Program-made: the position numbers and the translations under genes | Virus genome (UHGV): UHGV-0176840 | Strand: one strand, 5' to 3' | From: a virus | Length of the DNA stretch: 47,486 nt | Shown here: positions 44,806 through 46,598 of the stretch, piece after piece | Layout of the letters: every line of letters begins with the position of its first letter | Numbering within the stretch: position 1 is the first letter of the stretch | The notes under the pieces: model-generated | Seen by the model: the letters and a program-made list of their open reading frames with translations, nothing else | Told to the model about the DNA's origin: nothing | Database searches by the model: none

Positions 44806-44995
44806 TATGAAAGATGAATTTATTGATTATGACGTTAAGCGCCAAGAAATGGCTTCTGATGCAACGCTGCGTGACTATTTTGCCGCAAAAGCAATGCAGT
44901 CTCTGTTAATTACATCACCAAATATGGGTTATGGCGAGAAGGCTGAACATGCTTACCTTATCGCAGAAAGAATGATGGAGGCGAGAGTTAAATGA
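44795..44995 (+). CDS. hypothetical protein
   Basis: 66-aa ORF. Confidence 0.35.
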   Translation: MVNDMKDEFIDYDVKRQEMASDATLRDYFAAKAMQSLLITSPNMGYGEKAEHAYLIAERMMEARVK

Positions 44996-45801
44996 AAACA
45001 CTAAGCAAAATCTATTCAGACAAAGAAACGCGGAACGGCATCGCTGTTAACAAAACCTATCTCGTGCCAGTTGAGCAAATCTATCTGGAGCCGGGATACA
45101 ACATCCGTGAGGCAGATGAGCAGCATGTTGAATATTTCGCACAGTGCTGGGAATCAGGTCAGCCATTGCCAGCATTAACAGTTATCCCAGATGAGAAGGG
45201 AATCCGCATTCTTGATGGCCAGCATCGCTATCTAGGCGCGCTGCGAGCCATTGAGCGTGGTGCGCCAATCGTTCGCATCGAGTGTAAGGATTTTACTGGC
45301 GATGAGGCTGATAAAATCGCCTTCATGGTGTCATCCAGTCAGGGCAAGCAGCTCGACCCATTTGAACGCGCGAAGGCTTATACGCGACTGAAAGGCTTTG
45401 GCTGGACGAATGAAGAAATCGCCAAGAAGGTAGGTCGTTCAGTATCTGACGTGCAGATGCACCTGTCACTTGGTGATGTTCCTGCGGAAGTAAAAGCGCG
45501 AATCAGTGCGGGGCAAATCAGTTATGCAAATGCCGTAGCAGTAACGCGTGAGCATGGAGAGGATGCGGTGAAAGTTATCGACGAGGCTGTGGAAGAAGCA
45601 AAGGCGCAAGGTAAAGAAAAGGTCACAGCGAAGGTGCTGAAGTCGAAAAAGATTAAGCCAGTGGACCGCCTGATTGAGTTATTGAAGCCAGCAGACCACG
45701 TGATTCTCCCTGCTGGTCATGTGGTGGCAGAGGATGAGGAGTTTATTCAGATTCCTGTTGCTGACATTCACGAGGTTATGGCAATTCTGGAGAAGATGTG
45801 A
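44992..45801 (+). CDS. ParB-like nuclease domain protein
   Basis: ParB/Srx motif ILDGQHRY; overlaps the methyltransferase start (GTGA). Confidence 0.7.
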   Translation: MKTLSKIYSDKETRNGIAVNKTYLVPVEQIYLEPGYNIREADEQHVEYFAQCWESGQPLPALTVIPDEKGIRILDGQHRYLGALRAIERGAPIVRIECKDFTGDEADKIAFMVSSSQGKQLDPFERAKAYTRLKGFGWTNEEIAKKVGRSVSDVQMHLSLGDVPAEVKARISAGQISYANAVAVTREHGEDAVKVIDEAVEEAKAQGKEKVTAKVLKSKKIKPVDRLIELLKPADHVILPAGHVVAEDEEFIQIPVADIHEVMAILEKM

Positions 45802-46598
45802 TGATAGTCCACTATTACAATGAGTGGGACAAGGGCGCAGCGGCATGGCTGCGTGAATTAATTAACAATAAACTAATTCCTTACGGATATGTCGATGAAC
45901 GATCAATCACCGAAGTCACCCCTTCAGACCTGGAAGGATTTACACAGTGTCACTTCTTTGCCGGAATCGGAGGGTGGCCCCTTGCACTCCAGCTGGCAGG
46001 AATACCAGAAAGCACTCGACTCTGGACAGGATCACCACCTTGCCAGCCGTTTAGCGTTGCCGGTAATTCTCTCGGATTTGACGACGATCGACACCTTGCC
46101 CCAGCATTTCTCAGGCTCATCAGAGAGTGCAAGCCTGAATTGCTGTTTGGAGAGCAGGTTGCAGCAGCAATTGGGAAGCACTGGCTCGATTTTGTATTCC
46201 TTAACCTGGAAGACAAAGGCTACGCCTGCGGGGCGTCAGTATTGCCAGCTTGCAGCGTCGGCTCTCCACAGGAAAGGAAAAGAATCATCTTTGGCGCGAG
46301 GATGGGCGACACCAACGGCGCGAGGATGGAAGGATTACGGGAATCTCAGCAAGTCATTTTACAGAAAGGACGGAAAATTCAGGAGCGATACTCTTTATCG
46401 CCAGATGTGGCTTCATGTTTATGGGATTCATGGAAACCCAACCATGGAGCAGATAAGGAAACTAGAGTCATACCAGGCGGATTTTGCGAGGCAACTCATG
46501 GGGTATCCGCAAGAGTGGGACGATTGCGCGGTTATGGCAATGCCATAGTTCCACAAGTCGCAGCAGAATTCATTAAAGCATTCATGAGGTCCGTTTAA
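45798..46598 (+). CDS. Dcm-like DNA cytosine-5 methyltransferase, with target-recognition domain and motif IX out of frame
   Basis: Motifs I FAGIGG, IV PCQPFS, VI FGEQV, VIII QERKRIIF and X GYGNAIV are in this frame; TLSARYYKDG-like target-recognition motif (TPTARGWKDYG) and motif IX (ARQLMGYPQEW) are in the +1 frame (ORF 45889..46548). Confidence 0.6.
   Translation: MMIVHYYNEWDKGAAAWLRELINNKLIPYGYVDERSITEVTPSDLEGFTQCHFFAGIGGWPLALQLAGIPESTRLWTGSPPCQPFSVAGNSLGFDDDRHLAPAFLRLIRECKPELLFGEQVAAAIGKHWLDFVFLNLEDKGYACGASVLPACSVGSPQERKRIIFGARMGDTNGARMEGLRESQQVILQKGRKIQERYSLSPDVASCLWDSWKPNHGADKETRVIPGGFCEATHGVSARVGRLRGYGNAIVPQVAAEFIKAFMRSV

What the first reader, a model, noticed from the sequence alone, without database searches (positions are those of the whole stretch)
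46269..46548. Dcm-like C5-methyltransferase with target-recognition domain and motif IX in the +1 frame, bounded by a 24-nt tandem duplication
Motifs I (FAGIGG), IV (PCQPFS), VI (FGEQV), VIII (QERKRIIF) and X (GYGNAIV) are in the annotated frame. The segment between VIII and X, read in that frame, has no methyltransferase features. The +1 frame (ORF 45889..46548) encodes a convincing Dcm-type target-recognition motif, TPTARGWKDYG (compare E. coli Dcm TLSARYYKDG), and motif IX, RKLESYQADFARQLMGYPQEW (compare Dcm RRLTPRECARLMGF). An intact enzyme would therefore need a +1 shift near 46298-46330 and a return shift between 46521 and 46530. The first junction coincides with a 13-nt direct repeat, GGCGCGAGGATGG, at 46293-46305 and again at 46317-46329, which together make a 24-nt tandem duplication. 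Either the phage carries a methyltransferase inactivated by two compensating indels that leave the ORF open, or there are two assembly errors. The alternative is a slippage-based switch. The gene overlaps an upstream ParB-like nuclease-domain gene, a pairing seen in phage anti-restriction modules.
Basis: partly seen in the sequence, partly recalled or inferred. Interest (0 to 1): 0.6.

Follow-up and report, generated by a model that had tools for sequence, protein, structure and literature searches.

The report
Two-subunit methylase from overlapping frames
The phage cytosine methyltransferase gene that looks frameshifted is really two intact overlapping genes, a catalytic alpha chain and, inside it in the +1 frame, a beta chain carrying the DNA-recognition modules and motif IX; this layout is conserved in every relative examined and matches the E. 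coli enzyme M.EcoHK31I.

Summary
The observed facts hold. Frame A (45801-46598) carries motifs I, IV, VI, VIII and X. The +1 ORF (45889-46548) carries a WxTP module and a motif-IX-like LMGYPQEW. The 13-nt repeat is real.

The interpretation does not hold. This is not a private double indel, an assembly error or a slippage switch.
- Both frames are open in 79 related loci from phages of enterobacteria, Xanthomonas, Ochrobactrum, Rhodobacter, mycobacteria and Lactobacillus.
- Wobble-position divergence switches phase A to B to A along the gene, and some stretches are constrained in both frames.
- The frame-B ATG sits at a conserved position, often behind an AAGGAG made from alpha codons.
- The frame-B profile is homologous (hhalign 94%, E 2e-7) to the variable region plus motif IX of a single-frame enzyme, mycobacteriophage ShiLan gp70.

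The best reading is a two-polypeptide C5-methyltransferase. Alpha supplies the catalytic core and motif X. Beta supplies the recognition modules and motif IX. This matches M.EcoHK31I, whose beta is encoded inside alpha in another frame and is required for activity. The gene is a new member of a known but under-annotated kind. Expression and activity of beta are inferred, not shown.

The parts
45801..46598 (+). Alpha gene (frame A, 265 aa; alternative GTG start at 45798). C5-methyltransferase catalytic chain with motifs I, IV, VI, VIII and X.
   Evidence: ORF list. Pfam PF00145 at 76 bits over aa 70-172. phrog_363 at E 4e-74. The profile aligns with M.HhaI residues 75-171. More than 8000 homologues exist, all PF00145, including an identical protein P0121.
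45957..45974 (+). Alpha motif I, FAGIGG (AdoMet binding).
   Evidence: Aligns with M.HhaI FAGLGG.
46038..46055 (+). Alpha motif IV, PCQPFS (catalytic Cys). The +1 reading gives the beta family's conserved 'ASxLA/ASLSA'.
46146..46160 (+). Alpha motif VI, FGEQV (ENV type).
46269..46292 (+). Alpha motif VIII, QERKRIIF (QxRxR).
46293..46529 (+). Alpha middle segment (aa 165-243). Weakly constrained read-through of the beta-coding region that joins the catalytic core to motif X.
   Evidence: Frame A amino-acid identity here is 0.34-0.51 against 0.59-0.78 for frame B. Divergence is highest at frame A position 1, which is frame B position 3. The alpha frame stays open even across 9 beta modules (633 codons) in L096.
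46530..46550 (+). Alpha motif X, GYGNAIV.
   Evidence: Wobble-type divergence returns to frame A phase here. Aligns with ShiLan gp70 IIGNGVVP.
45889..46548 (+). Beta gene (frame +1, 219 aa), lying entirely inside the alpha gene. Candidate starts are ATG 45889, ATG 45895 and TTG 45982.
   Evidence: ORF list. 194 homologues at E<=1e-3. phrog_1008 at E 3e-19. 29,183 cluster representatives match the beta profile. Intact in close relatives. Start analysis.
45889..46134 (+). Beta leader (aa 1-82). Kept free of stop codons but shows no frame-B selection. Predicted disordered.
   Evidence: Divergence by frame A codon position is 0.24/0.21/0.57 here, the same as in the non-overlapped first 25 codons. 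AlphaFold2 pLDDT is below 50 for aa 1-77.
46135..46275 (+). Beta-specific helix plus hairpin domain (LESRLQQQL...YSLTWKTKATPAGR...AASALHRK), overprinted on alpha motifs VI to VIII. Inferred to be the contact with alpha.
   Evidence: Conserved in every relative. Mixed-phase divergence of 0.41/0.27/0.385. AlphaFold2 gives helix 78-96 and strands 103-125 at pLDDT 64-87. No counterpart in single-frame ShiLan gp70. The role is inferred from M.EcoHK31I beta deletions.
46303..46461 (+). Beta WxTP module (WATPTARGWKDYG...). It corresponds to the variable or target-recognition region of one-chain enzymes.
   Evidence: hhalign matches beta columns 141-278 to gp70 residues 200-351, Prob 93.8%, E 1.8e-7. 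Frame-B-phase selection. Relatives carry 1 to about 10 such modules.
46462..46518 (+). Beta motif IX-like segment, LESYQADFARQLMGYPQEW.
   Evidence: Aligns with gp70 APAFSEWMMGWPAGW and with M.HhaI motif IX KLHPRECARVMGYPDSY, the latter only weakly at E 0.09.
46293..46329 (+). Two copies of the 13-mer GGCGCGAGGATGG (46293-46305 and 46317-46329). They encode ARGW twice in beta. This is a lineage-specific local repeat, not an insertion.
   Evidence: Shared with Bas80 and Bas75, absent in L020 and SBP at identical segment length.
44992..45801 (+). Upstream ParB-like gene. Its stop codon overlaps the alpha start.
   Evidence: Pfam HTH_ParB at E 1e-11 and KorB at E 7e-6. Annotated as 'ParB-like partition protein' in relatives.

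Best explanation
The locus encodes a two-polypeptide C5-cytosine DNA methyltransferase from two overlapping genes in different frames on the same strand.

Alpha (45801-46598) supplies the AdoMet-binding and catalytic core (motifs I-VIII). After a poorly constrained read-through spacer, it also supplies motif X.

Beta (45889-46548, +1 frame, wholly inside alpha) is translated from its own start. It consists of:
- a dispensable disordered leader;
- a small beta-specific domain overprinted on alpha motifs VI-VIII, inferred to be the docking surface for alpha;
- one WxTP module equivalent to the variable or target-recognition region;
- motif IX.

Alpha and beta are inferred to assemble into the active enzyme, as shown experimentally for M.EcoHK31I. 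The enzyme is inferred to methylate phage DNA as an orphan, anti-restriction methylase of unknown specificity.

Shown here: both ORFs are conserved, each is under purifying selection in its own segments, and beta is homologous to the middle of a one-chain enzyme. Inferred: beta is translated, the two chains form a heterodimer, and the complex has activity and a defined target.
For: 1. Family-wide layout. In 79 related loci with motif X, the frame A open stretch has a median of 340 codons and the +1 frame 280 (84%). The +2 frame has 64 and antisense 122. The same holds for K1G, a T4-like Krischvirus, Klebsiella SBP, Xanthomonas XAP3, epsilon15, BcepC6B, RcCWillis, mycobacteriophage Hades and Lactobacillus phage Lc-Nu.
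2. Openness beyond chance: P = 4e-4 to <5e-5 by synonymous randomisation. Given beta's sequence, alpha's openness has P <5e-5.
3. Alternating selection. Pairwise divergence per site at frame A codon positions 1/2/3 is 0.24/0.21/0.57 for codons 26-95, 0.41/0.27/0.385 for 96-170, 0.42/0.25/0.195 for 171-240 (frame B phase) and 0.31/0.25/0.53 from 241 to the end.
4. Double constraint on the same nucleotides. In 34 distinct K1G-type sequences, the 37 codons before motif X diverge by 0.23/0.13/0.19, with 78% identity in frame A and 75% in frame B. A single chimeric chain cannot explain this.
5. Alpha stays open across 9 beta modules, 633 codons in L096.
6. The beta ATG sits 15 or 21 codons before motif I in most loci. 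It often follows AAGGAG built from the codons GAA AGG AGT of the conserved DERSIEDV. Median anti-SD dG is -5.9 against a background of -2.8 kcal/mol.
7. Beta is homologous to the in-frame variable region plus motif IX of ShiLan gp70: hhalign Prob 93.8%, E 1.8e-7. A frame A-B-A composite joins motifs IX and X colinearly with gp70.
8. Precedent. M.EcoHK31I beta is encoded entirely in another frame inside alpha. Alpha has motifs I-VIII and X, beta has motif IX, both are needed for activity, and the first ~42 beta residues are dispensable in vitro (PMC2836561; PMC3404938).
9. AlphaFold2 on beta gives a disordered leader (aa 1-77) and structured segments at 78-129 and 150-216.
Against: - No direct evidence here that beta is translated or that alpha and beta associate.
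- In this particular lineage the Shine-Dalgarno sequence before the beta ATGs is weak (-1.1 and -3.3 kcal/mol), so the real start is uncertain. TTG 45982 has a strong one at -10.
- Pfam and PDB profile searches do not recognise beta. The match of its motif IX to M.HhaI is not significant (E 0.09).
- Foldseek on the beta model found nothing. The alpha model was too poor to use (pLDDT 36).
- The published description places the TRD of M.EcoHK31I in alpha. Here the region under selection lies in beta.
Confidence: 0.8

Rival explanations
1. One chimeric polypeptide is made by two programmed ribosomal frameshifts, +1 near 46293-46303 and -1 near 46519-46530. This would reconstitute a one-chain enzyme in the order A-B-A.
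For: The pattern of purifying selection is A, then B, then A. The composite is colinear with the one-chain ShiLan gp70.
Against: - Frameshifting would not require frame A to stay open through the middle, yet it does for up to 633 codons.
- It would not require frame B to stay open for about 80 codons upstream of its conserved part.
- Some stretches are constrained in both frames at once.
- Beta has a positionally conserved ATG, often with AAGGAG upstream.
- There is no slippery heptamer, in-frame stop or homopolymer at either junction, and junction sequences differ among relatives.
- M.EcoHK31I is active when alpha and beta are expressed from separate plasmids.
Confidence: 0.05
2. The methyltransferase is a pseudogene inactivated by two compensating indels that happen to leave the ORF open, or the two shifts are assembly errors.
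For: Motifs lie in different frames. Isolated metagenomic contigs do show real A-to-B fusions at assorted positions (P0037, P0368, L090).
Against: - The sequence is 95-99% identical, with both ORFs intact, in about 13 independently sequenced phages. An identical alpha protein cluster has 93 members.
- There are no indels relative to relatives at the junctions.
- The layout is shared by phages infecting other phyla.
- Both frames show purifying selection.
Confidence: 0.01
3. This is a slippage-based (phase-variable) switch centred on the 13-nt repeat. It would toggle the gene between frames.
For: The exact 13-nt direct repeat 24 nt apart is unlikely by chance.
Against: - The period of 24 is divisible by three, so gain or loss of a unit cannot change the frame.
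- Tandem Repeats Finder finds no array, and there is no homopolymer of 5 or more.
- The repeat is identical in Bas80 and Bas75, with no copy-number variation. It is absent in L020 and SBP, which have the same length and the same two-frame layout.
Confidence: 0.01
4. Only alpha is functional. The +1 ORF is an untranslated by-product of alpha's composition, or a relic.
For: Most genome records annotate only alpha. Pfam does not know beta. The SD before beta is weak in this lineage.
Against: - Wobble-type divergence in frame B phase across alpha codons 171-240, where beta is more conserved than alpha.
- The modular WxTP architecture is readable only in frame B.
- Beta is homologous to the functional middle of a one-chain enzyme.
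- Synonymous randomisation shows the openness is not a by-product of alpha's protein sequence.
- Without beta the enzyme would lack a conserved variable region and a canonical motif IX.
Confidence: 0.04

Closest known systems
M.EcoHK31I (E. coli, YGGCCR), a heterodimeric C5-methyltransferase (Lee, Kam and Shaw 1995, as described in PMC2836561 and PMC3404938)
   Same: Beta is encoded entirely inside the alpha gene in a different reading frame. [quoted passage not shown] The beta N-terminal residues are dispensable and internal starts are usable. Both chains are needed for activity.
   Different: M.EcoHK31I is part of a restriction-modification system, whereas this gene is a phage orphan. The literature assigns the TRD to alpha, whereas here the selected, modular variable region lies in beta. 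Direct sequence homology to M.EcoHK31I was not tested.
M.AquI (CYCGRG), a split alpha/beta C5-methyltransferase
   Same: A natural two-polypeptide C5-methyltransferase.
   Different: In M.AquI the enzyme is simply cut within the variable region. Alpha has motifs I-VIII and beta has IX-X. Motif X is not on the catalytic chain, and one gene is not nested inside the other.
One-chain phage C5-methyltransferases with LPTP modules, such as mycobacteriophage ShiLan gp70
   Same: The same motif order (I, IV, VI, VIII, repeated [L/W]PTP modules, motif IX 'EWMMGWPAGW', motif X), and homologous to both alpha and beta.
   Different: Everything is in a single frame, and the +1 frame is full of stops. It lacks the beta-specific LTWK helix-hairpin domain.
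Multispecific C5-methyltransferases of Bacillus phages (SPR, phi3T, rho11s), from my own knowledge
   Same: Several short recognition modules in tandem within the variable region of a phage-encoded orphan C5-methyltransferase. This resembles the 1 to about 10 WxTP modules of the beta family.
   Different: Those are single polypeptides. No sequence relationship was tested. The window's beta has only one module.
   Same: Same superfamily (PF00145). TIGR00675 'dcm' superfamily hit at 62.5 bits.
   Different: The hit is below the NCBIfam cutoff of 100.65 bits. Dcm is a single chain. Nothing found here indicates CCWGG specificity.

Membership tests
C5-cytosine DNA methyltransferase (PF00145) | Profile match above the Pfam gathering score. 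| tested here: met
   Alpha scores 76.4 bits against a cutoff of 22, but only over aa 70-172.
C5-cytosine DNA methyltransferase (PF00145) | Motif I (FxGxG), motif IV (PCQ catalytic Cys), motif VI (ENV), motif VIII (QxRxR) and motif X (GN..P). | tested here: met
   All are in frame A at the coordinates. Alignment to M.HhaI residues 3-32 and 75-171. Motif X aligned to gp70.
C5-cytosine DNA methyltransferase (PF00145) | Variable region (TRD) and motif IX between motifs VIII and X in the same chain. | tested here: not met
   Frame A has no recognisable or conserved TRD or motif IX there. These elements are in the +1 frame. The enzyme is complete only as alpha plus beta.
M.EcoHK31I-type heterodimeric C5-methyltransferase | A second ORF lying entirely inside the alpha gene in another reading frame of the same strand. 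| tested here: met
   45889-46548 lies inside 45801-46598 in the +1 frame. Conserved in 79 loci.
M.EcoHK31I-type heterodimeric C5-methyltransferase | [quoted passage not shown] | tested here: met
   Alpha motifs. Beta LMGYPQEW aligns with gp70 motif IX (hhalign E 1.8e-7). It aligns only weakly with M.HhaI motif IX (E 0.09).
M.EcoHK31I-type heterodimeric C5-methyltransferase | Beta is translated independently of alpha. | tested here: inconclusive
   A conserved ATG position and frequent AAGGAG across the family, but a weak SD in this window. No expression data.
M.EcoHK31I-type heterodimeric C5-methyltransferase | Both polypeptides are required for methylation. | not testable with these tools
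   Needs expression and methylation assays. Shown only for M.EcoHK31I.
M.EcoHK31I-type heterodimeric C5-methyltransferase | Sequence homology to M.EcoHK31I alpha and beta. | not tested
   The original paper (PMC306636) is not held. The later paper has no supplementary files held as text, so no sequence was available.
Dcm (CCWGG-specific) | Equivalog-level profile match, or CCWGG specificity. | tested here: not met
   TIGR00675 scores 62.5 bits, below the cutoff of 100.65. Specificity is not testable here.
Programmed ribosomal frameshift gene | A conserved slippery site, or a stop or rare codon with a stimulator, at the frame junction. The zero frame is not required to stay open beyond that point. 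| tested here: not met
   No heptamer at either junction. The only one in the gene is AAACCCA at 46434, and it is not at a junction. Both frames remain open.
Phase-variable (slipped-strand) gene | A homopolymer or short tandem repeat whose unit is not a multiple of three, with copy-number variation among isolates. | tested here: not met
   No repeats by Tandem Repeats Finder and no homopolymer of 5 or more. The 13-mer pair has a period of 24 and is invariant in Bas75 and Bas80.

The most novel reading that the evidence does not exclude
The whole phage clade may be a modular two-chain methyltransferase system in which specificity is supplied in trans by beta. The clade has more than 8000 alpha homologues (a capped count), and 29,183 cluster representatives match the beta profile.

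Under this reading, each WxTP module (1 to about 10 per beta) is an interchangeable target-recognition unit, so multi-module betas would make multispecific anti-restriction methylases. The beta docking domain (LTWK helix-hairpin) would have arisen de novo by overprinting alpha motifs VI-VIII. The alpha 'middle' would be a pure spacer that must merely stay stop-free.

This would also explain why insertions in this gene family stay 'seamlessly' open in the methylase frame. It would mean that the TRD assignment for M.EcoHK31I (alpha) needs revisiting.
Probability: 0.3. Interest if true: 0.7.

Novelty: new member of a known kind. Interest (0 to 1): 0.5.

Why it matters
- Annotation. Most phage records annotate only alpha. 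A gene of 200-570 codons is therefore missed, or mislabelled as 'hypothetical', 'Mte8-like' or 'restriction enzyme', in a family whose beta profile matches 29,183 cluster representatives. Anyone expressing alpha alone would probably get an inactive enzyme.
- Biology. This is among the longest and most widely conserved same-strand gene overlaps in bacteriophages. The alternation of selection between frames is exceptionally clear, which makes it a good natural model for overprinting and dual coding.
- Phage-host conflict. If the beta modules set specificity, module number and identity would predict which restriction systems a phage evades. That is relevant to choosing phages for therapy, since the close relatives are BASEL-collection and therapeutic-candidate phages.
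- Scan design. 'Motifs in two frames' should not be read as a pseudogene before relatives are checked.

Tried and rejected
- Pfam on a hand-made A-B-A composite gave only 79.5 against 76.4 bits and no extension of the domain. Neither C-terminal fragment was recognised.
- NCBIfam found nothing for beta.
- hmmsearch of the beta profile against all PDB sequences gave no hit at E <= 10.
- The AlphaFold2 model of beta had a mean pLDDT of 57, and Foldseek against PDB gave only noise.
- The AlphaFold2 model of alpha, from 62 close homologues, failed with pLDDT 36 and was not used.
- For a pseudo-complex model I built an alpha-linker-beta fusion alignment. MAFFT misplaced the beta homologues (A1), so I did not submit it.
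- The original M.EcoHK31I paper is not held, and the later paper has no supplementary files held as text. Homology to the prototype is therefore untested.
- 'Mte8' led to no source for the name.
- Four literature searches found no paper describing the overlap as a property of the phage family.
- The programmed frameshift, pseudogene, assembly-error, phase-variation and 'beta is a by-product' readings were each considered and rejected, for the reasons given under rival explanations.
Full report
**What is in the window.** The annotated-frame ORF (frame A, 45798/45801-46598) and a 219-codon ORF in the +1 frame (frame B, 45889-46548) are both present. Frame A holds FAGIGG, PCQPFS, FGEQV, QERKRIIF and GYGNAIV. 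Frame B holds WATPTARGWKDYG and LESYQADFARQLMGYPQEW. Pfam recognises frame A only over residues 70-172 and does not recognise frame B. The 13-mer GGCGCGAGGATGG occurs at 46293-46305 and 46317-46329 and nowhere else, against 0.01 expected. The upstream gene has ParB HTH and KorB matches, and its stop codon overlaps the methylase start.

**The +1 ORF is not a chance feature.**
- It is open for 223 codons.
- Redrawing synonymous codons for the same alpha protein gives a mean longest +1 run of about 75 codons. The observed value is reached in 0.04% of draws, and in none of 20,000 within-gene synonymous shuffles.
- Conversely, given the beta protein, frame A never stays open.
- The other 30 long genes in the window have +1 runs of 34-138 codons.

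**It is not private to this phage.** The region is 95-99% identical in about 13 independently sequenced coliphages and Salmonella phages (Bas71, Bas75-80, ZCEC08, HC6 and others), with both ORFs intact. The same layout then appears in relatives that share only 40-60% protein identity:
- K1G, whose GenBank record already annotates the inner ORF as a 'putative Mte8-like protein';
- a T4-like Krischvirus, Klebsiella phage SBP and Xanthomonas phage XAP3;
- a Mu-like metagenomic phage, an Ochrobactrum prophage and a three-module phage contig;
- epsilon15, BcepC6B, Rhodobacter RcCWillis, mycobacteriophage Hades and Lactobacillus phage Lc-Nu.

In a survey of 79 loci that contain motif X, the median open stretch is 340 codons in frame A, 280 in +1, 64 in +2 and 122 on the antisense strand. 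In one contig the inner ORF has nine WxTP modules (572 aa), and frame A is nevertheless open for 633 codons across all of them.

**Frame B is a real protein family.**
- It has 194 database homologues at E <= 1e-3.
- It matches phrog_1008 at E 3e-19.
- Its profile matches 29,183 cluster representatives, 8,370 of them at E <= 1e-30.
- Members share four parts: an N-terminus that is simply the +1 reading of alpha motifs I-IV ('ASLSA' is the +1 reading of 'PCQPFS'); a conserved LGSRL...Y.LTWK..TP.GR...AS..RT block; between one and about ten WxTP modules; and GQLNPAHSRWLMGFPPEW.

**Selection alternates between the frames.** In a codon alignment of the window with four relatives of the same subtype, I measured pairwise divergence at frame A codon positions 1/2/3.

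| Alpha codons | Divergence 1/2/3 | Reading |
|---|---|---|
| 1-25 | 0.29/0.21/0.59 | Ordinary frame A coding |
| 26-95 | 0.24/0.21/0.57 | Ordinary frame A coding |
| 96-170 | 0.41/0.27/0.385 | Mixed phase |
| 171-240 | 0.42/0.25/0.195 | Wobble of frame B, since frame B position 3 is frame A position 1 |
| 241-end | 0.31/0.25/0.53 | Frame A again |

Amino-acid identity follows the same pattern. Frame A is more conserved than frame B at the ends. In the middle, frame B (0.59-0.78) is more conserved than frame A (0.34-0.51). In the K1G-type subfamily, the 37 codons before motif X have no wobble position at all (0.23/0.13/0.19), with 78% identity in frame A and 75% in frame B over 34 distinct sequences. 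This double constraint also explains why blastn finds 46495-46594 at 75-90% nucleotide identity in phages of Vibrio, Xanthomonas, Rhodobacter and Komagataeibacter.

**Frame B encodes the variable region and motif IX.** Mycobacteriophage ShiLan gp70 is a one-chain enzyme. One frame carries motifs I, IV, VI and VIII, then three LLPTP.A.DG modules, then NPRLAPAFSEWMMGWPAGW, then IIGNGVVPQQA. Its +1 frame is full of stops. hhalign of the beta profile against gp70 aligns beta columns 141-278 with gp70 residues 200-351 at probability 93.8% and E 1.8e-7. The beta LTWK block has no counterpart in gp70. It overlaps alpha motifs VI-VIII and is best seen as overprinted.

**Why two polypeptides rather than frameshifting or decay.**
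- A chimeric A-B-A chain would not need frame A to be open through the middle, or frame B to be open through about 80 unselected leader codons. Both are kept open everywhere.
- Stretches constrained in both frames need two products.
- The first frame-B ATG lies 15 or 21 codons before motif I in most loci. It is often preceded by AAGGAG made from GAA-AGG-AGT in the conserved DERSIEDV. Median anti-SD energy is -5.9 against -2.8 kcal/mol for background.
- There is no slippery heptamer, homopolymer of 5 or more, or tandem array at the junctions.
- The 13-mer pair adds no length relative to L020 and SBP, and it is invariant in Bas75 and Bas80.
- There is an experimental precedent. [quoted passage not shown] Both chains are required, they work when expressed from separate plasmids, and the first ~42 residues of beta are dispensable in vitro (PMC2836561; PMC3404938).
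- AlphaFold2 on the window's beta agrees with a dispensable leader. Residues 1-77 are disordered, and residues 78-129 (helix plus hairpin) and 150-216 are structured at moderate confidence.

**Weak points.**
- Translation of beta and the alpha-beta association are inferred.
- In this lineage the SD before ATG 45889 and 45895 is weak, and a TTG at 45982 sits behind a strong GGAGGG made by the motif I codons. The true start is therefore open.
- General profile libraries and PDB searches do not see beta. The alpha model failed.
- Homology to M.EcoHK31I itself is untested.
- Target specificity is unknown, and nothing supports CCWGG.

**Novelty.** The architecture is known from one enzyme described in 1995. 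I found no paper that states it as a property of the phage family. A 2025 paper on out-of-frame HNH insertions in mycobacteriophage methylases (PMC11855218) is not among the seven held papers that mention EcoHK31I. Databases contain beta ORFs under assorted names. I therefore rate the window's gene as a new member of a known kind with moderate interest. Its value lies in correcting annotation and in being a striking natural dual-coding example. The more novel possibility, that beta modules act as exchangeable specificity units supplied in trans, is stated separately.

Noticed in passing
L017 680-2041 (Klebsiella phage KpV2811); also L018, L019, L021: The beta ORF does not stop near motif X. 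It runs 171 codons further, in frame, through a domain annotated separately as endonuclease VII (CAICG...HVDHCH...CRGCN). It then ends with the usual beta tail (RKSQRNSLKHS). This may be a beta-nuclease fusion, or a nuclease gene inserted into the beta tail.
   Followed up: partly
P0361 (547 aa): This beta homologue has an insertion of about 170 aa rich in Cys pairs and basic residues (zinc-finger or HNH-like) between the leader and the LTWK block. It recalls the out-of-frame HNH insertions reported in mycobacteriophage methylases (PMC11855218). The need to keep alpha open may explain why such insertions are 'seamless' in the methylase frame.
   Followed up: no
L040 544-2208: The alpha ORF continues without a stop into a Dam-like N6-adenine methyltransferase domain (KWAGGK...DPPY), giving an open frame-A stretch of 554 codons (C5 plus N6). 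Beta is still nested in the C5 part.
   Followed up: no
P0037, P0368 and L090 568-1749: These are ORFs in which the alpha N-terminus switches into the beta frame, at three different places: after motif I, after 'RHLAPAF', and at motif VI. They are probably single-base indels or sequencing errors in metagenomic contigs. They swap the partners of the two ORFs rather than truncating them.
   Followed up: partly
window 46495-46594: This 100-nt stretch matches phages of very different hosts (Vibrio, Xanthomonas, Rhodobacter, Komagataeibacter, Tunturiibacter) at 75-90% nucleotide identity. That is unusual DNA-level conservation, explained by simultaneous constraint in two frames.
   Followed up: yes
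window 45962-45984: The motif I codons GGA GGG TGG form a strong Shine-Dalgarno-like GGAGGG (-10 kcal/mol) 7 nt before a frame-B TTG at 45982. This is a possible alternative beta start that would remove 31 leader residues.
   Followed up: partly
L054 665-1276: In this relative the beta frame is open for only 203 codons and stops 134 codons before motif X, while alpha is intact (399-codon open stretch). It is either a natural beta-defective allele or a different split.
   Followed up: no
L097/L098 3001-3636: A beta of the window's subtype (P0013, 211 aa), with its alpha, sits in a P2-like prophage between DUF5405 genes and the GPA replication gene. The gene pair therefore moves between lytic siphophages and temperate P2-like elements.
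   Followed up: no
P0036: A beta homologue from Tatumella ptyseos is named 'restriction enzyme' by its source. The K1 phage records call the same ORF 'Mte8-like protein'. I could not trace the origin of either name.
   Followed up: partly
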